A stretch of 64,000 nucleotides of DNA from Candidatus Zixiibacteriota bacterium (GTDB taxonomy: Bacteria > RBG-13-66-14 > B26-G2 > WVWN01): positions 32,580 to 96,579 of the forward strand of contig WVWN01000064.1 of the NCBI GenBank assembly GCA_011773985.1. The letters are read 5' to 3'. Both the position numbers and the translations under genes were made by a program. Positions 43,115 to 47,036 of the stretch are shown here, piece after piece. The notes below the pieces were generated by a model. That model was not told the DNA's origin and ran no database searches. It saw only the letters and a program-made list of their open reading frames with translations. Every line of letters starts with the position of its first letter. The first letter of the stretch is position 1.

Positions 43115-44617
43115 ATGAAGGTGACGCGAGTTTTGCGGATAGTTTACGCCGTGGCGGTCGTGGCGGCGTTCTTGGCCGCGCCCTCGATGTTTTCGCGGGC
43201 TTGGGCCGACGATAATTCCCGGGATTTCGTACGCGAGATACGGCTCTTCGACACCGTCGCCAACTACGTGCGCATGAGTTACGTTACGGAGGTCGACCCC
43301 CAGGAGCTCATTCACGACGCCATCCGCGGCATGTTGTCCGGCCTTGACGTCTATACGGTGTTTTTGGAGGCGGACGATTTCCGCCTCATCATAAACGAAA
43401 CCGAGGGTTCCTTCGGCGGCCTGGGCATCGAGATAGCGGTAACGCCCGAGGACCAGACGCTCACGGTGATGAACGTACTAGAGGGGACGCCGGCCGAGCG
43501 GGTCGGCCTTAGGGCGAGAGATAAAATCGTCGAGATAGACGGGGAGTCGACGAAGGGGATTACGACCCGCGAAGCCTTGCTCAAAATGCGCGGCGAGGCC
43601 GGCACGGACGTGGAGGTCGGTATTGCCCGTAAGGGTTATGCCGATAAATTGGACTTCAAGATAACGCGCGAGGTCATCCACGTCGATTCCGTGCCCTATT
43701 ATTTTATGGCCGCGGACGATGTCGGGTATATCCGCGTCGCCGCCTTCTCCTGCGACGAGGAGCGTAGCACCTCCAAGGACGCCGAAAAGGCCCTGGCGGA
43801 GTTGAAGAAGGCGGGGATGAAGAAACTCATCGTCGACTTGCGCGGGAACCCGGGCGGCCCCCTTGACGAGGCGGTGGCCCTGGCCGGCCTATTTCTAAAG
43901 AAAGGTTCGTTGGTCGTGTACACGGGCGGCCGCGCCGGGCGGTGGGAACAACGAAAATACTTCGTCGAGGACGAACCGAAGTACGGTAAAGAGCCGTTCG
44001 TGGTTTTGGTCGACGGCTCGTCGGCGTCGGCGTCCGAGGTCTTCACGGGCGCTTTGAAGGACCACAAGCGCGCGGTGGTGATGGGGGAGAAGACTTACGG
44101 CAAGGCCTCGGTGCAGACGTTGATACCGTTGACGGCCGCGGCCGACGCGGGCCCGGGCCCGGGCCTCAAGATAACCATTGCCTATTATTATTCGCCCGAC
44201 GGCCACCTCATCGACGGCGAGGGCATAGAACCGGTTGTAGACCTCGAGGCGGAGGAGGTGCCGCTCGTGGTCGGGAAGTTGTTCGTACTCGGTTATTTTA
44301 GGATGTACGCCGAAGCCTACCACGACGCGCACGGCGGCTCGGCGCTGGCCGACTTCGAGGGCGACGCCACGGCCTTCGAGAAGTTCGTCGCGTGGGTCGA
44401 GGAACGGGGGTTCGACTTCTACCCCGAGGGCTACGCGGAGACGCTGCCGGATAACGGCCGCGAGTTCTACGTCGCCGCCATCGAGAAGGAGCGCGAGGCC
44501 GCAATGACGATATTGACGCGCGAGGTAATTCGCGAGGCGGCGGGCGACGCCGAGGCGTACACGTACTGGCGCCGGCACGACCCGTGGGTCGCGAGCGCGG
44601 TCGAGGAATTGTCCTGA
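43115..44617 (+). CDS. ctpA: C-terminal processing peptidase (S41, Ctp/Prc)
   Basis: PDZ domain (GLGIEIAV...), S41 catalytic region (GSSASASEVFTGAL...KTYGKASVQ). Confidence 0.85.
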   Translation: MKVTRVLRIVYAVAVVAAFLAAPSMFSRAWADDNSRDFVREIRLFDTVANYVRMSYVTEVDPQELIHDAIRGMLSGLDVYTVFLEADDFRLIINETEGSFGGLGIEIAVTPEDQTLTVMNVLEGTPAERVGLRARDKIVEIDGESTKGITTREALLKMRGEAGTDVEVGIARKGYADKLDFKITREVIHVDSVPYYFMAADDVGYIRVAAFSCDEERSTSKDAEKALAELKKAGMKKLIVDLRGNPGGPLDEAVALAGLFLKKGSLVVYTGGRAGRWEQRKYFVEDEPKYGKEPFVVLVDGSSASASEVFTGALKDHKRAVVMGEKTYGKASVQTLIPLTAAADAGPGPGLKITIAYYYSPDGHLIDGEGIEPVVDLEAEEVPLVVGKLFVLGYFRMYAEAYHDAHGGSALADFEGDATAFEKFVAWVEERGFDFYPEGYAETLPDNGREFYVAAIEKEREAAMTILTREVIREAAGDAEAYTYWRRHDPWVASAVEELS

Positions 44618-44622
44618 CGGCC

Positions 44623-44905
44623 GAGGAGATAAGGATCGTAGAGGGGTCGAAGGGGCAGGGTTTCAGGCCGGCCCAGAAGAATTAAAACGCGCCGACCTAA
44701 AGGTTAGCGCCTACGGCGAATGACATAGCCGCGGACGGCAAGATCGACGCGCTGGCCTACGAGCTGTATGGTTTGACGGAGGAAGAGATAAAGATCGTCG
44801 AGGCATCGTAGGGGCGACTGGCCAGTCGCCCTTACCGAGCTAACGGCTTAGGAGATAAAGATCGTGGAGGGGTCGTAGGGGCGAATGGCCCGTCGCCCCT
44901 CCCCG
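44623..44905 (+). repeat. Three dispersed copies of a ~35-50 nt unit (GAGATAARGATCGTNGAGG..TCGWAGGGGC plus GC hairpin)
   Basis: Copies at ~44623-44660, 44787-44831 and 44851-44905; copies 2 and 3 carry the palindromes GGGCGACTGGCCAGTCGCCC (perfect, 20 nt) and GGGGCGAATGGCCCGTCGCCCC. Confidence 0.6.
44701..44811 (+). pseudogene. Remnant of the 3' end of an N6-adenine DNA methyltransferase gene (RM/BREX-type), no N-terminal body
   Basis: In-frame stretch ...NDIAADGKIDALAYELYGLTEEEIKIVEAS* matches the stereotyped C-terminus (…LVYELYGLTEEEI.IVEG) of type I/IIG/PglX-class MTases; bounded upstream by TAA at 44698. Confidence 0.5.
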
Positions 44906-44932
44906 GCCACGCCAATGGGTCCCGCAGCCGAT

Positions 44933-44958
44933 GCCGGCCTATCCGTGGGCCGGTTTTT
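44933..44958 (+). terminator. Rho-independent terminator upstream of the tRNA-Asp promoter
   Basis: CCGGCC-tatccgtg-GGCCGG followed by TTTTT. Confidence 0.5.
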
Positions 44959-45011
44959 GACGACGTAGCTTCGGGACGCGTACGCCCGCCGCCACGTTCG
45001 GCGTTTCGGAC

Positions 45012-45040
45012 TTGATGAAGGCGGCGGTTTATGGTATAAA
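45012..45040 (+). promoter_or_regulatory. sigma70-type promoter for tRNA-Asp (TTGATG-N17-TATAAA)
   Basis: Hexamers at 45012-45017 and 45035-45040, about 12 nt before the tRNA 5' end. Confidence 0.5.
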
Positions 45041-45052
45041 TAGCGCCTTAGC

Positions 45053-45127
45053 GGGGCGGTAGTTCAACTTGGTTAGAGCACCGGCCTGTCACGCCGGAAG
45101 TTGCGGGTTCGAGTCCCGTCCGCCCCG
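45053..45127 (+). tRNA. tRNA-Asp (anticodon GTC)
   Basis: GGGGCGGTAGTTCAACTTGGTTAGAGCACCGGCCTGTCACGCCGGAAGTTGCGGGTTCGAGTCCCGTCCGCCCCG; closely resembles canonical bacterial tRNA-Asp; 7-bp acceptor stem GGGGCGG/CCGCCCC; CCA not encoded. Confidence 0.9.
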
Positions 45128-45203
45128 AATCGTCGAGCCCCCCGCGCGCGGGAGGGCGAAAATTTAGCGACGCATGTTAATTTCAATTGGAGGCTGAGAC
45201 CAT

Positions 45204-47036
45204 ATGAGAAAGGCTATAACGATTGCGCTAGCGGCGGCTGCTTTGCTTTGGGTCGGCGCGACGCTAAACGGGTGCGGCGGCTGCGGTTACGACGAGAAAA
45301 GGCCGATCGCGACTATCGACGGTAAAACGACAATCACCGTCGGCGATTTCGTCTACCACTATAAACGCGCCGTCGAGATGGCGCCGCCCCAGGACAAGCC
45401 GGTCATCAATACCTTTGACGACGCGAAGGATTTCCTCGACGACATCGTGACCGCGCGCGTACTCGAGGTCGAGGCCGAAGCGCTGGGCTACGCCGACGAC
45501 GAGGGCCTAAAGAACTCCGTCAAAACTCACCGCTCCAATCTTCTCCGCGAACGGACGCGGCAGAAGATCGAGGATTCGGTTAAGGTCACCGAGGCCGAGA
45601 TCTTAGATCATTTCAATAAGAATAAGGAGTGGCGCCGGGTCTCTTTCATCGTGTGCGACGATAAAAAAAAGTGCGAGAAAGCGTACGCGGAACTTAAGGC
45701 CGGTAAACCGTGGGACGAGGTCGTAAAGAAGTACACGATCCGTGAGGAGAACAAAGACAAGGGCGGCAAGTTTGAGCTAGATTTTTATTACAACGCCGAT
45801 AACGTGAGCCGCGCCGTTTACGAGACCGCGGTCGGAAAGTACACCCCCGTCGTAGAGGGCGAGGGGGGCGACCAGTGGTTCATATTCCGCGTCGACGAAA
45901 AAATCCCGGGCCATAAGGATGAATACGCCAAGGTCAAGGATGAAATCCGCAACGCCATAAAACGTTACAAGGTTGACGTAAAGACGTGGGAATACCTGGA
46001 GAAGCTGCGCAAGGAAACCGACATAAAGGTCGACCGCAAAGTGTACGACGCGCTCATCAAGGGCGATATCGCTGACGCCAAGAAGAAGTACAATCGCAAG
46101 GGCGTAGCCGTGTCGAGCGTGGGCGGCATCCCCGTGTACTTCGAGAGTTGGTACGAGGGCATGTTTCTGCAACTGGGCGTGAGTGAGGAAACGGTAGGCG
46201 AATTTCGGCGGAAGGAACCCGAGCAATACAAGAAGGCTATGGACGAGCGGCTTAAGGCGTTGGAGAACGACGCGTTGCTCGAGTACGACGCGGTCCGGTC
46301 CGGTGTGGATAAAGACGATCAGTTCGTCCGCGACCTGGATAGATTCCGCGCCGGCATGTTGGTCGACCAGATTTACGACGACGTCTTCGTTGCCACTATC
46401 CCCGAGGTAACGGAGGGCGAGATTAGGGAGTACTTCGAAAATCATATCGAAGAGTTCCAGGACCTCGAGCGGGCCGACGTCCACGTAGTGGCATTTCCCG
46501 ACAAGGCGGAAGTCGAAAAGATCCGCGCGGAAGTCGCGGCCGGCGGCGACTTATCGGCCGTCGCGGGCAAACGGGTCGACAAATATTTGGCGGCGATGGA
46601 GGAAAAAGGGGAATTGAAGAAACAACCTACCCCGGAGAAGATGCCGGTTTCGGACTTCTTGACGGTATACAAGGAGGCGGAAGGCGCCAAAGCCGGGACG
46701 GGCACGAGGCCCGGGGGCGCCGAGTTTGCCTTGGCGGATGAACTCAGGCCCCGCGTTTTCAAAACCAAAAAGGGCGACGTAAGCGAGGTCTTCAAGCTCA
46801 AGGACGGCCGCTGGGCGTTCTTCAAGTATTTGGAATATTTCCCCTTCGTTCAACATACGCTGGACGAAGAACAATACCGCAGCACCGCGGAGGACGGCGC
46901 ACAACGCGAAAAAATAGCGAGCCCGGAGGTCGATCGCAAGTGCCAGGCGTGGTTCGGCGAGTTGCGCGCCAAACACGAAATCGACGTCGACGAAGGTGCC
47001 CTTAAAATGGCGTACAAAAAGGTTCAGAAATTATAG
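45204..47036 (+). CDS. SurA-like periplasmic chaperone lipoprotein (parvulin-type domains)
   Basis: Lipobox LNGCGGC; SurA-N-like region and PpiC-type domains; 610 aa. Confidence 0.6.
   Translation: MRKAITIALAAAALLWVGATLNGCGGCGYDEKRPIATIDGKTTITVGDFVYHYKRAVEMAPPQDKPVINTFDDAKDFLDDIVTARVLEVEAEALGYADDEGLKNSVKTHRSNLLRERTRQKIEDSVKVTEAEILDHFNKNKEWRRVSFIVCDDKKKCEKAYAELKAGKPWDEVVKKYTIREENKDKGGKFELDFYYNADNVSRAVYETAVGKYTPVVEGEGGDQWFIFRVDEKIPGHKDEYAKVKDEIRNAIKRYKVDVKTWEYLEKLRKETDIKVDRKVYDALIKGDIADAKKKYNRKGVAVSSVGGIPVYFESWYEGMFLQLGVSEETVGEFRRKEPEQYKKAMDERLKALENDALLEYDAVRSGVDKDDQFVRDLDRFRAGMLVDQIYDDVFVATIPEVTEGEIREYFENHIEEFQDLERADVHVVAFPDKAEVEKIRAEVAAGGDLSAVAGKRVDKYLAAMEEKGELKKQPTPEKMPVSDFLTVYKEAEGAKAGTGTRPGGAEFALADELRPRVFKTKKGDVSEVFKLKDGRWAFFKYLEYFPFVQHTLDEEQYRSTAEDGAQREKIASPEVDRKCQAWFGELRAKHEIDVDEGALKMAYKKVQKL

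What the first reader, a model, noticed from the sequence alone, without database searches (positions are those of the whole stretch)
44618..44960. Triplicated remnant of a DNA-methyltransferase 3' end with perfect palindromes, wedged between ctpA and tRNA-Asp
Immediately after the ctpA stop there are three diverged copies of one unit: the coding tail EEI(K/R)IVE(G/A)S, a stop, then a GC-rich hairpin. The middle copy still reads …NDIAADGKIDALAYELYGLTEEEIKIVEAS*, which is the stereotyped C-terminus of N6-adenine MTases of restriction-modification and BREX (PglX) systems. It is followed by a perfect 20-nt palindrome, GGGCGACTGGCCAGTCGCCC. No MTase body, restriction subunit or integrase is present. 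This looks like the scar of a lost (or serially inserted and lost) RM-like or mobile module next to a tRNA gene, a classic integration hotspot. Alternatively a small repeat family in this genome has captured a gene-end-plus-terminator unit.
Basis: partly seen in the sequence, partly recalled or inferred. Interest (0 to 1): 0.55.

Follow-up and report, generated by a model that had tools for sequence, protein, structure and literature searches.

The report
Scar of a lost restriction-modification gene
The three repeats after ctpA are the leftover 3' end of a type IIG restriction-modification gene, together with the small palindromic repeats that had copied that gene's tail; a close relative still carries the intact gene at the same spot, so this is an ordinary but well-documented gene-loss scar.

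Summary
Three direct copies of a ~61-nt unit lie at 44613-44903 and nowhere else in the 64 kb. Each unit is the coding tail LTxEEI(K/R)IVE(G/A)S followed by a GC-rich hairpin.

The middle copy retains about 30 codons that match the extreme C-terminus of type IIG (Eco57I-like) restriction-methyltransferase enzymes. The hairpins are 28-nt GTAG-tagged palindromes of the REP type.

Synteny decides the reading. In the closest relative found (CtpA 94% identical), an intact 965-aa type IIG gene sits directly after ctpA. It is followed by a collinear tail/hairpin array and an IS200-family transposase gene. The window lacks exactly 2,955 bp of that arrangement: the ctpA terminator, a promoter and the gene body. 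A 15-nt repeat, CTGACGGCYGAGGA, bounds the missing segment. More distant relatives have an empty ctpA-terminator-tRNA-Asp spacer, and two others carry different decay or replacement states behind the same promoter.

It is type IIG rather than BREX, and no integrase or tRNA-targeted integration is involved. The triplication fits the known tendency of GTAG REP clusters to reiterate flanking DNA.

Similar tail+REP arrays, some with genes between the tails, recur in other phyla. This is a modest side lead. Interest is low to moderate.

The parts
43115..44617 (+). ctpA-like S41 C-terminal processing peptidase gene (context). Its TGA stop (44615-44617) lies inside the first CTGACGG of copy 1.
   Evidence: ORF list. 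Homologues carry PDZ + Peptidase_S41 domains.
44613..44627 (+). Deletion junction: a single hybrid copy of the 15-nt repeat cCTGACGGCYGAGGA. In relative L078 this repeat flanks the 2,955-bp segment (ctpA terminator + promoter + type IIG gene) that is absent here.
   Evidence: blastn: window 44400-44627 = L078 3629-3856 (92%), and window 44613-44911 = L078 6812-7085. Sequences. Alignment.
44614..44674 (+). Copy 1: tail LTAEEIRIVEGS plus a degenerate hairpin (GAAG GGGCAGGGTTTCAGGCCGGCCC). It corresponds to the lost gene's own 3' end.
   Evidence: Collinear with L078's own tail and degenerate hairpin. Fold -6.7 kcal/mol.
44689..44714 (+). Imperfect second hairpin GCGCCGACCTAAAGGTTAGCGCCTAC, ending in CTAC. 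The same element is in L078 (GCGCCAACCTAAAGGTAGGCGCCTAC).
   Evidence: The fold is no better than shuffles (z -0.30), so the assignment rests on conservation with L078.
44716..44811 (+). Pseudogene fragment: the last ~30 codons of an Eco57I-like type IIG restriction-methyltransferase (…DGKIDALAYELYGLTEEEIKIVEAS*). It is a 'long' duplicate of the gene's 3' end.
   Evidence: PADLOC type IIG C-terminus E 1.3e-6. tblastn with five full-length type IIG proteins hits only 44716-44814.
44773..44835 (+). Copy 2: tail plus the 28-nt GTAG-tagged palindrome GTAGGGGCGACTGGCCAGTCGCCCTTAC (44808-44835). The perfect 20-nt core is at 44812-44831.
   Evidence: DNA fold -10.7 kcal/mol, z -3.6. The Zixibacteria locus L045 has the identical 20-nt palindromic core GGGCGACTGGCCAGTCGCCC; its 3' end is CCTAC where the window has CTTAC.
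44840..44902 (+). Copy 3: a short unit starting at CTAACGG four bases after the preceding hairpin. It has an internal TAG, then tail EIKIVEGS and the hairpin GTAGGGGCGAATGGCCCGTCGCCCC.
44934..44958 (+). Hairpin plus a run of five T (CCGGCC…GGCCGG TTTTT). This is probably the present transcription stop for ctpA, since the ancestral ctpA terminator lay in the deleted segment.
   Evidence: Sequence and fold -7.7 kcal/mol. The consensus terminator scan did not call it, so this part is inferred.
45052..45128 (+). tRNA-Asp(GTC), the right-hand boundary of the variable spacer. It is intact.
   Evidence: ARAGORN. Rfam tRNA 66.8 bits. Conserved in relatives L080, L081, L082.

Best explanation
The region is the decayed 3' flank of a lost Eco57I-like type IIG restriction-modification gene.

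**Ancestral state (shown by relatives).** An ancestor of this Coatesbacteria-related lineage acquired a cargo between the ctpA terminator and the tRNA-Asp promoter. The cargo was a promoter, a ~965-aa type IIG gene, and a downstream cluster of 28-nt GTAG-tagged palindromes (REP-type hairpins). The cluster was accompanied by an IS200-family transposase gene.

**How the tail was triplicated.** As REP clusters do, the cluster had reiterated the DNA next to it, which here was the last 12-45 codons of the gene. The result was three tail(+hairpin) units in the ancestor.

**What happened in the window's lineage.** A 2,955-bp deletion between two copies of the 15-nt sequence CTGACGGCYGAGGA removed the ctpA terminator, the promoter and the whole gene body. 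One copy lay just after the ctpA stop and the other lay at the start of the gene's own tail. This fused the gene's own tail (copy 1) to the ctpA stop codon. The IS200 element and part of the third duplicate are also absent.

**Present state.** What remains is non-coding. It is probably carried along as the ctpA 3' untranslated region up to the hairpin and T-run at 44934-44958.

**Shown:** the repeat anatomy, the homology of the remnant, the collinearity with the occupied allele, and the deletion end-points.

**Inferred:** the direction of change (loss rather than gain), the mechanism of triplication, and the present transcription.
For: **1. Remnant homology.** The remnant matches the type IIG C-terminus in PADLOC. 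tblastn with full-length type IIG proteins hits only 44716-44814 in the whole window.

**2. Occupied allele.** L078/L079 have CtpA 94% identical. They carry ctpA, a terminator, a TTGACA/TATAAT promoter, a 965-aa gene (HSDR_N + N6_Mtase/Eco57I + TaqI_C; PADLOC type IIG E 6.7e-91), the tail/hairpin array, and an IS200/IS605 TnpA (98 bits against a cut-off of 55).

**3. End-points.** Window 44400-44627 aligns to L078 3629-3856 at 92%. Window 44613-44911 aligns collinearly to L078 6812-7085. The 15 nt shared by the two alignments is the repeat at both edges of the missing 2,955 bp.

**4. Polarity of change.**
- More distant relatives have empty spacers of 155-200 nt: L081 (Ca. Coatesbacteria CP070633), L082 and L086.
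- L080 keeps the same promoter and the gene's first codons fused to the tail, which is an internal deletion.
- L092 keeps the same promoter and a 6-codon stub, followed by a different gene.
- Together with the window, that makes three independent decay or replacement states of one ancestral gene.

**5. Nature of the hairpins.** They are GTAG palindromes found widely without any MTase tail. [quoted passage not shown]

**6. Not a genome-wide family here.** There is no other unit and no other GTAGGGGC hairpin in the 64 kb. In relatives these hairpins occur only in this spacer.
Against: - The array is only 68-73% identical between the window and L078, while ctpA DNA is 92% identical.
- The window's copy 2-3 segment is closer to a Zixibacteria locus (L045, 77% over 177 nt) than to L078. 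The array may therefore have been replaced or converted by horizontally acquired DNA rather than inherited vertically from an L078-like state.
- The upstream copy of the 15-nt repeat is partly ancestral sequence: L092 has TGACGGTTGGGCGA and L081 has TAACGGCGACGG. Its origin and the exact mechanism of deletion remain uncertain.
- L078's contig ends before the tRNA gene, so the right-hand side of the occupied allele is not seen.
- The cause of the triplication is not demonstrated.
Confidence: 0.8

Rival explanations
1. The tail+hairpin is a mobile composite repeat. It would be a REP/BIME-like unit whose 5' arm happens to be a type IIG gene end. It transposed, or was copied by a Y1 (RAYT/IS200-type) enzyme acting in trans, to the 3' side of ctpA. 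No type IIG gene would ever have sat here.
For: - Short units begin recurrently at (C)TGACGG a few bases after a preceding hairpin's CTAC in several unrelated contigs: window copy 3, L045, L042, L047, L053, L055, L056.
- Two MAGs carry units on two separate contigs each: L041/L047 and L043/L048.
- In L055 and L049 the unit supplies the in-frame C-terminus of an unrelated membrane protein.
- Tails are about 80-90% conserved between type IIG genes that are about 30% identical overall.
- Y1 transposase genes lie within ~400 nt of tails in at least 9 loci.
Against: - The window's array is collinear, element by element, with the array that follows an intact gene in the closest relative. Copy 1 aligns with that gene's own tail.
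- Copy 2 carries about 30 codons of gene body upstream of the short unit.
- There is no other copy in 64 kb, and there is no Y1 gene in the window.
- Duplication boundaries differ between loci. For example, the 118-nt units of L064 start at CCGTCTGG, which argues against one site-specific process.
- Loci L040-L077 were selected for tail-hairpin adjacency, so the association with Y1 genes is biased.
Confidence: 0.1
2. The repeats are att-site scars left by repeated integration and excision of a tRNA-targeting genomic island or prophage that carried an RM system.
For: The region lies next to tRNA-Asp, and the spacer content varies among relatives.
Against: - No integrase is present in the window's flanks or in any relative's spacer. 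The neighbouring genes are an M23 peptidase, purN, ctpA and rotamases.
- No duplicate of the tRNA 3' end was found.
- The tRNA gene and the upstream motif cttgatgaa...tataaat are conserved in empty and occupied alleles.
- The repeated sequence is the end of the cargo gene itself, not host target DNA.
Confidence: 0.03
3. The array is retained because it now functions. It could stabilise or terminate the ctpA mRNA as stable 3' hairpins. Alternatively it could serve as a homology 'landing pad' that lets new type IIG-linked cargo recombine back in.
For: - The deletion removed ctpA's own terminator, so transcripts must cross the array.
- Hairpins 2 and 3 are stable.
- In other loci, different genes sit between tail copies: AbiGi, a chloramphenicol acetyltransferase, PDC-S16/DUF2188 and IS200.
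- An independent assembly carries the identical array.
Against: - The copies are decaying. Copy 1's hairpin is degenerate, copy 3 has an internal stop, and there is a 46-nt indel relative to L078.
- No expression data exist.
- The identical second assembly probably samples the same population.
Confidence: 0.07

Closest known systems
GTAG-tagged repetitive extragenic palindromes (REPs) and REP clusters/BIMEs, with their Y1 transposases (RAYTs; 'REPtrons') - Nunvar 2010 (PMC2817692), Di Nocera 2013 (PMC3733652)
   Same: - A 28-nt GC-rich palindrome headed by GTAG and located just downstream of a coding region.
- Head-to-tail copies reiterated together with a piece of flanking DNA.
- The stem varies by complementary changes between lineages while the GTAGGGGC…GCCCCTAC ends stay fixed.
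- Y1 HUH transposase genes lie next to such hairpins in related loci.
   Different: - It is not abundant here: two good copies in 64 kb, both at one locus.
- In this lineage the hairpins are seen only inside one variable spacer.
- GTAG is paired with a 3' CTAC/TTAC rather than left unpaired.
- There is no RAYT in the window.
- The transposase in the closest relative is a plain IS200-family TnpA.
[quoted passage not shown]
   Same: - An RM gene is present in one genome and absent at the same site in a close relative.
- Direct repeats sit at the edges.
- No integrase or classical transposon ends are present.
- Other relatives carry different genes at the same site.
   Different: - The repeat at the edges is short (15 nt), and one copy is the gene's own 3' end rather than duplicated host target.
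- The longer duplicates (36-45 codons) lie downstream of the gene and are tied to REP hairpins.
Eco57I-family type IIG restriction-methyltransferase fusion enzymes (HSDR_N nuclease + gamma-class N6-adenine MTase + TaqI_C specificity domain)
   Same: The remnant's sequence matches their conserved C-terminal helix …(V/A)YELYGLTEEEIKIVE. The intact syntenic gene has the full domain set.
   Different: Only the last ~30 codons survive in the window. There are no catalytic motifs, so there is no activity.
Integron attC arrays / clusters of attC sites lacking an integrase (CALINs)
   Same: An array of imperfect palindromes with conserved ends and variable centres. In other loci, single genes sit between the repeats, including a chloramphenicol acetyltransferase in L076.
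   Different: - The ends are GTAGGGGC/GCCCCTAC, not the RYYYAAC/GTTRRRY core sites (consensus recalled from my own knowledge and compared by eye).
- No IntI gene was seen.
- A ~35-nt coding tail is part of each unit.
- Duplication boundaries vary between loci.

Membership tests
Type IIG (Eco57I-like) restriction-modification gene (as a pseudogene remnant) | Sequence homology to the family's conserved C-terminus | tested here: met
   PADLOC REase_MTase_IIG E 1.3e-6 and 1.1e-5, aligned to the last ~30 profile positions. tblastn with five full-length proteins gives 67-81% identity over 27-32 aa.
Type IIG (Eco57I-like) restriction-modification gene (as a pseudogene remnant) | MTase catalytic domain (N6_Mtase/Eco57I) and N-terminal nuclease domain present | tested here: not met
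   tblastn finds nothing beyond 44716-44814 in the whole window. Pfam and NCBIfam find nothing on the remnant. It is a fragment, not a gene.
Type IIG (Eco57I-like) restriction-modification gene (as a pseudogene remnant) | An intact orthologous gene at the syntenic position in a relative | tested here: met
   L078/L079 carry a 965-aa gene with HSDR_N, N6_Mtase, MmeI_Mtase, Eco57I and TaqI_C domains directly after ctpA. Its downstream array is collinear with the window's.
BREX PglX methyltransferase | Scores above the NCBIfam BREX MTase cut-offs, with neighbouring BREX genes (pglZ, brxC etc.) | tested here: not met
   The syntenic full-length gene scores 144.8 bits against a cut-off of 500 (BREX-1), and 84-101 bits against 400-900 for the others. 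No BREX genes are in the L078 locus. The remnant's PglX hit is weak (E 0.012) and falls in the middle of that profile.
GTAG-tagged REP (Di Nocera 2013; Nunvar 2010) | A 20-40 bp palindrome with a terminal GTAG motif, downstream of a coding region | tested here: met
   GTAG+GGGCGACTGGCCAGTCGCCC (44808-44831) and GTAG+GGGCGAATGGCCCGTCGCCC (44875-44898). The same class is widespread: 37 stretches in viral contigs.
GTAG-tagged REP (Di Nocera 2013; Nunvar 2010) | High copy number dispersed through the genome (usually >100 copies) | tested here: not met
   Only the two or three copies at this locus in 64 kb. The rest of the genome could not be searched, so the result is limited to the window.
GTAG-tagged REP (Di Nocera 2013; Nunvar 2010) | A cognate RAYT / Y1 transposase gene flanked by the same hairpins (REPtron) | tested here: inconclusive
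   None in the window. In related loci, Y1 genes adjoin the arrays: L078 is IS200-family, L045 has a Y1_Tnp flanked by its own GTAG palindromes, and L048 is flanked by four or five GTAGGGGCGCACAGCTGTGCGCCCCTAC copies. The RAYT-like proteins score below the NCBIfam REP_Tyr_transpos cut-off (47-53 bits against 80).
tRNA-targeted integrative island | A tyrosine/serine integrase gene and a direct repeat of the tRNA 3' end bounding the insert | tested here: not met
   No integrase in any allele. No tRNA-derived repeat. The insert lies upstream of the tRNA promoter region, which is conserved in empty sites.
Integron cassette array / CALIN | attC sites with RYYYAAC…GTTRRRY cores, and an IntI integrase for a complete integron | tested here: not met
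   By inspection the hairpin ends are GTAGGGGC…GCCCCTAC. No attC covariance model was available, so this rests on the consensus alone. No integrase gene was seen.

The most novel reading that the evidence does not exclude
The conserved ~35-60-nt 3' tail of Eco57I-like type IIG genes, together with an adjoining GTAG palindrome, behaves as a portable docking module.

Across several phyla (the Coatesbacteria-related lineage, Zixibacteria, Chloroflexota and unclassified MAGs), tails are multiplied downstream of the gene. Accessory genes sit between tail copies: an AbiGi-like protein, a chloramphenicol acetyltransferase, PDC-S16/DUF2188, a recurrent Zn-ribbon protein, a recurrent DUF4328-like membrane protein, and IS200/RAYT-type transposases. 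This would make a cassette-like array.

The array would be assembled either by recombination between tails of non-orthologous genes or by Y1-transposase action on the hairpins. The window would then be an emptied array.
Probability: 0.25. Interest if true: 0.55.

Novelty: new member of a known kind. Interest (0 to 1): 0.3.

Why it matters
For this genome the finding explains a puzzling intergenic repeat as the footprint of a lost defence gene. It also marks the ctpA-tRNA-Asp spacer as a variable defence-gene site in a poorly known candidate phylum. Across relatives the site shows an intact gene, an internal deletion, a replacement behind the same promoter, a full deletion, and the empty ancestral state.

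More generally, it is a clean example of REP-type palindromes reiterating the end of a neighbouring gene. If the wider pattern holds up in an unbiased survey, it would describe a simple homology-based route by which accessory defence and resistance genes collect behind restriction-modification genes. That pattern is tail+palindrome arrays with genes between them, behind type IIG genes in several phyla.

Tried and rejected
- **Pfam and NCBIfam on the 36-aa and 29-aa remnants:** no hits. Only PADLOC's full-length type IIG profiles reach the tail.
- **Exact look-up of the window's CtpA:** not on record, presumably because the start codon was called differently. I went through homologues instead.
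- **Rfam on 44300-45300:** only tRNA-Asp. Two sRNA hits at 16-17 bits against a gathering score of 100 are noise.
- **Consensus promoter/terminator scan:** called nothing relevant, and in particular not the 44934-44958 hairpin.
- **Tail-only DNA pattern in viral contigs:** the one hit examined was a chance match; the second could not be read because the script failed.
- **A stricter YGLTxEEI(K/R)IVE pattern in viral contigs:** only 4 type IIG gene ends, all single-copy and without hairpins. This is a useful but very small control.
- **Rare ATA codon argument:** I had considered that a conserved rare ATA Ile codon in the tail proved DNA-level spread. ATA makes up 33% of Ile codons in this window's genes, so I dropped the argument.
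- **Integron attC, Xer/dif-like 11-6-11 sites, DGR target hairpins and tRNA-island att scars:** each was considered as a reading of the palindromes. The integron and tRNA-island readings were set aside for lack of the corresponding recombinase and consensus. The dif-like and DGR readings were only considered and not tested: no recombinase or reverse transcriptase gene was noticed nearby, but none was searched for.
- **Pfam on L092's replacement gene and L080's 185-aa gene:** no hits.
Full report
**1. What is in the sequence**

Between the stop codon of a ctpA-like S41 peptidase gene (43115-44617, +) and tRNA-Asp(GTC) (45052-45128, +) there is a 434-nt spacer. The repeat finder reports three direct copies of a 61-nt unit at 44617-44677, 44776-44836 and 44843-44903. 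Copies 1 and 3 are 62% and 82% identical to the middle copy.

The core GAGATAARGATCGTVGAGG occurs three times in the 64-kb window, against 0.07 expected, and only here. The perfect 20-nt palindrome is at 44812-44831 and a two-mismatch copy is at 44879-44898.

In frame, the middle copy reads RLAPTANDIAADGKIDALAYELYGLTEEEIKIVEAS*.

Four refinements apply:
- Copy 1 begins on the ctpA stop itself. TGA 44615-44617 lies inside CTGACGG.
- Each palindrome is the core of a 28-nt hairpin headed by GTAG, so the TAG stop belongs to the hairpin.
- Copy 1's hairpin is degenerate. Hairpins 2 and 3 fold at -10.7 and -9.2 kcal/mol as DNA, with z about -3.
- A further imperfect hairpin ending in CTAC lies at 44689-44714. 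Its fold is no better than shuffles, and I include it because the same element is present in the relative L078.

In the whole window only three perfect hairpins have stems of 10 bp or more. Two are terminators with T-runs and the third is this palindrome.

**2. What the coding remnant is**

Pfam and NCBIfam see nothing in so short a piece. PADLOC's full-length type IIG restriction-methyltransferase profiles align it to their last ~30 positions (E 1.3e-6 and 1.1e-5). Full-length Eco57I-like proteins collected from other loci hit the window only at 44716-44814, with 67-81% identity. The window contains no other piece of such a gene and no Y1 transposase gene.

**3. Synteny settles the origin**

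CtpA homologues place the organism near Candidatus Coatesbacteria: 76% identity to the CtpA of genome CP070633. I fetched the contigs that encode the closest homologues and found these states of the same spacer:

| Locus | CtpA identity | State of the ctpA-tRNA-Asp spacer |
|---|---|---|
| L083 | 100% | Identical spacer in an independent assembly |
| L078/L079 | 94% | ctpA, terminator, TTGACA/TATAAT promoter, intact 965-aa type IIG gene, tail/hairpin array, IS200/IS605 transposase gene, third long tail copy |
| L080 | 82% | Same terminator and promoter; the gene's first codons fused to its tail (internal deletion); then three small genes, one a PDC-S16/DUF2188 candidate defence protein; another tail remnant and a GTAG hairpin; then tRNA-Asp |
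| L092 | 80% | Same terminator and promoter; a six-codon stub of the gene; then a different gene |
| L084/L085 | 77% | Transposase-less left and right ends of the IS200-like element plus one GTAG hairpin; no tail |
| L081, L082, L086 | 71-76% | Bare spacer of 155-200 nt with the ctpA terminator and tRNA-Asp |

The L078 gene carries HSDR_N, N6_Mtase/Eco57I/MmeI_Mtase and TaqI_C domains, and PADLOC scores it as type IIG at E 6.7e-91. Its downstream array is a tail, a degenerate hairpin, a second hairpin, a long duplicate of the gene's 3' end and a GTAG hairpin. Its transposase scores 98 bits against a cut-off of 55.

A type IIG cargo therefore entered this spacer in an ancestor of the 80-100% clade and has since decayed independently at least three times.

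**4. The deletion that made the window's arrangement**

blastn aligns window 44400-44627 to L078 3629-3856 at 92%. It aligns window 44613-44911 collinearly to L078 6812-7085 (alignment).

The two alignments overlap by 15 nt, cCTGACGGCYGAGGA. This sequence occurs in L078 both just after the ctpA stop and at the start of the gene's own tail. The window thus lacks L078 3857-6811, which is 2,955 bp holding the ctpA terminator, the promoter and the gene body.

It follows that copy 1 is the lost gene's own tail, now abutting ctpA. Copy 2 is the 'long' duplicate already present in L078, and it is 46 nt shorter here. Copy 3 corresponds in order to L078's third tail. In the window, copy 3 begins at CTAACGG four bases after hairpin 2, and it lacks both the IS200 element and the longer stretch of gene end seen in L078.

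The upstream 15-mer is partly ancestral: L092 has TGACGGTTGGGCGA and L081 has TAACGGCGACGG. Deletion by short homology is therefore plausible but not proven.

**5. What the hairpins are**

The pattern GTAGGGGCGAnnGGCCnnTCGCCC occurs in 37 stretches of the viral-contig collection, often several times per contig. None of the 60 nt of upstream sequence printed for each occurrence contains the methyltransferase tail. Across loci the ends GTAGGGGC…GCCCCTAC and the 28-nt length stay fixed, while the inner stem changes in complementary fashion.

This matches the published description of GTAG-tagged REPs. That description includes their position downstream of genes and their association with Y1 (RAYT) transposases. 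[quoted passage not shown] The triplication of the tail is therefore the expected behaviour of such a cluster sitting at the end of the type IIG gene.

In this lineage the hairpins are not a genome-wide family, at least in the DNA available. No other GTAGGGGC hairpin occurs in the 64 kb. In the relatives' flanks they occur only inside this spacer. They appear to have arrived with the cargo.

**6. The wider pattern (a lead, not a conclusion)**

I scanned one genome per species and the metagenome collection for a tail directly followed by TAGGGGC. This gave 9 and 29 loci. They come from Chloroflexota, Zixibacteria and unclassified MAGs.

Many show multiplied tails:
- L045 (Zixibacteria) has four over 1.9 kb. 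The second carries a hairpin with the same 20-nt palindromic core as the window's.
- L046 has three.
- L064 has six tandem 118-nt units after a gene of at least 1,011 aa.
- L061, L069 and L076 have three each.

Genes lie between tail copies. They include an AbiGi-like protein (L061), a chloramphenicol acetyltransferase (L076), a Y1 transposase flanked by its own GTAG palindromes (L045), a recurrent Zn-ribbon protein (L043, L045) and a recurrent DUF4328-like membrane protein (L045, L049, L055). In L049 and L055 the membrane protein ends in frame with a tail unit.

The type IIG proteins concerned are only about 30% identical overall to the L078 protein, but about 80-90% identical in the tail. 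The tail may therefore serve as shared homology for recombination between non-orthologous loci.

Three cautions apply:
- These loci were selected for tail-hairpin adjacency, so enrichment for transposases and hairpins is built in.
- Duplication boundaries differ between loci, which argues against one site-specific mechanism.
- The only control is four type IIG gene ends without hairpins in viral contigs, all single-copy.

**7. Comparison with known systems**

The finding combines two known things. The first is the presence/absence and substitution polymorphism typical of restriction-modification genes, including flanking direct repeats (PMC2853133). The second is GTAG REP clusters.

It is not a BREX remnant. 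The NCBIfam BREX scores of the syntenic gene are far below the cut-offs and there are no BREX neighbours. It is not a tRNA-island att scar, because there is no integrase, no tRNA-derived repeat, and the tRNA promoter region is intact. It is not an integron array, because the core sites are wrong and there is no IntI.

**8. Verdict**

The mechanism I commit to, at about 0.8, has three steps:
- acquisition of a type IIG gene with a REP cluster and an IS200 element;
- REP-cluster reiteration of the gene's tail;
- loss of the gene by a 2.96-kb deletion between 15-nt repeats.

The residue is probably transcribed passively as the ctpA 3' region. Interest is low to moderate. The cross-phylum tail+REP arrays with intervening genes are the only part that might repay a systematic survey.

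Noticed in passing
L092:6560-7095 (JGI Ga0452204_071888; CtpA 80% identical): The same ctpA terminator and TTGACA/TATAAT promoter as in L078. After a six-codon stub of the type IIG start (ATGGCGGCAGCGTTAATAG), a different gene begins (MAVWLTRAGRNGEHEDEAL…, cut by the contig end). It has no Pfam hit. The promoter seems to serve as a fixed entry point for different cargo.
   Followed up: partly
L080:5500-6870 (GCA_036480675.1 JAZGGY010000299): An internal deletion fuses the type IIG start codons to its tail. Downstream lie a 185-aa protein with no family, a 53-aa second tail remnant, a 76-aa DUF2188/PADLOC PDC-S16 candidate defence protein, a further remnant with GTAGCGGCGACCGGCCGGTCGCCCCTAC, and then tRNA-Asp.
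   Followed up: partly
L084:6520-6720 and L085:1730-1920: A transposase-less copy of the IS200-like element's left and right ends (compare L078 7064-7650), plus one GTAG hairpin. It sits in the same ctpA-tRNA-Asp spacer of a relative that has no methyltransferase tail. In both L078 and L084 the left end follows the pentamer CCGAG, a possible target site. The window has CCGAG followed directly by copy 3.
   Followed up: partly
L064:2400-3100 (minus strand; Ga0208695_1000167), also L050 and L067: Six head-to-tail 118-nt units follow a type IIG gene of at least 1,011 aa. Each unit has ~55 nt of the gene's 3' end, GTAGGGGCGTATGGCAATACGCCCCAAC, and ~35 nt of downstream flank. A RAYT-like gene follows.
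   Followed up: partly
L055 (oriented 65-715) and L049 (6296-6943); homologue in L045: A DUF4328-like membrane protein recurs next to tail units. In two of its three copies it ends in frame with tail residues (…PAEEIKIVEGA*, …LTAAETKIIENG*). The repeat unit here supplies the C-terminus of an unrelated protein.
   Followed up: no
L076:1028-1672 and L061:5745-6554: A chloramphenicol acetyltransferase (Pfam CAT, E 8e-40) and an AbiGi-like protein (E 1e-13) each sit between two copies of the type IIG tail.
   Followed up: no
L043:7311-8000 and L045 (minus strand 5933-5145): A 230-262-aa protein with an N-terminal CxxC…CxxC motif (61% identical between two unrelated MAGs) follows a type IIG tail in both. 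It has no hit in Pfam, NCBIfam or PADLOC.
   Followed up: partly
Viral-contig loci L003-L039, e.g. L017/L029/L039 (IMGVR_UViG_3300027899_000038): The 28-nt palindrome GTAGGGGCGACCGGCCGGTCGCCCCTAC is identical across many unrelated IMG/VR contigs. It occurs about 11 times on one 34.6-kb contig and at several places on others. These contigs may be REP-rich bacterial DNA or proviruses rather than phages.
   Followed up: no
window:44708-44878 versus L045:4937-5113: The window's copy 2-3 segment is closer to a Zixibacteria MAG (77% over 177 nt, with the same 20-nt palindromic core) than to the syntenic array of its own close relative L078 (68-71%). This hints at horizontal exchange or conversion of the tail+hairpin module between phyla.
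   Followed up: partly
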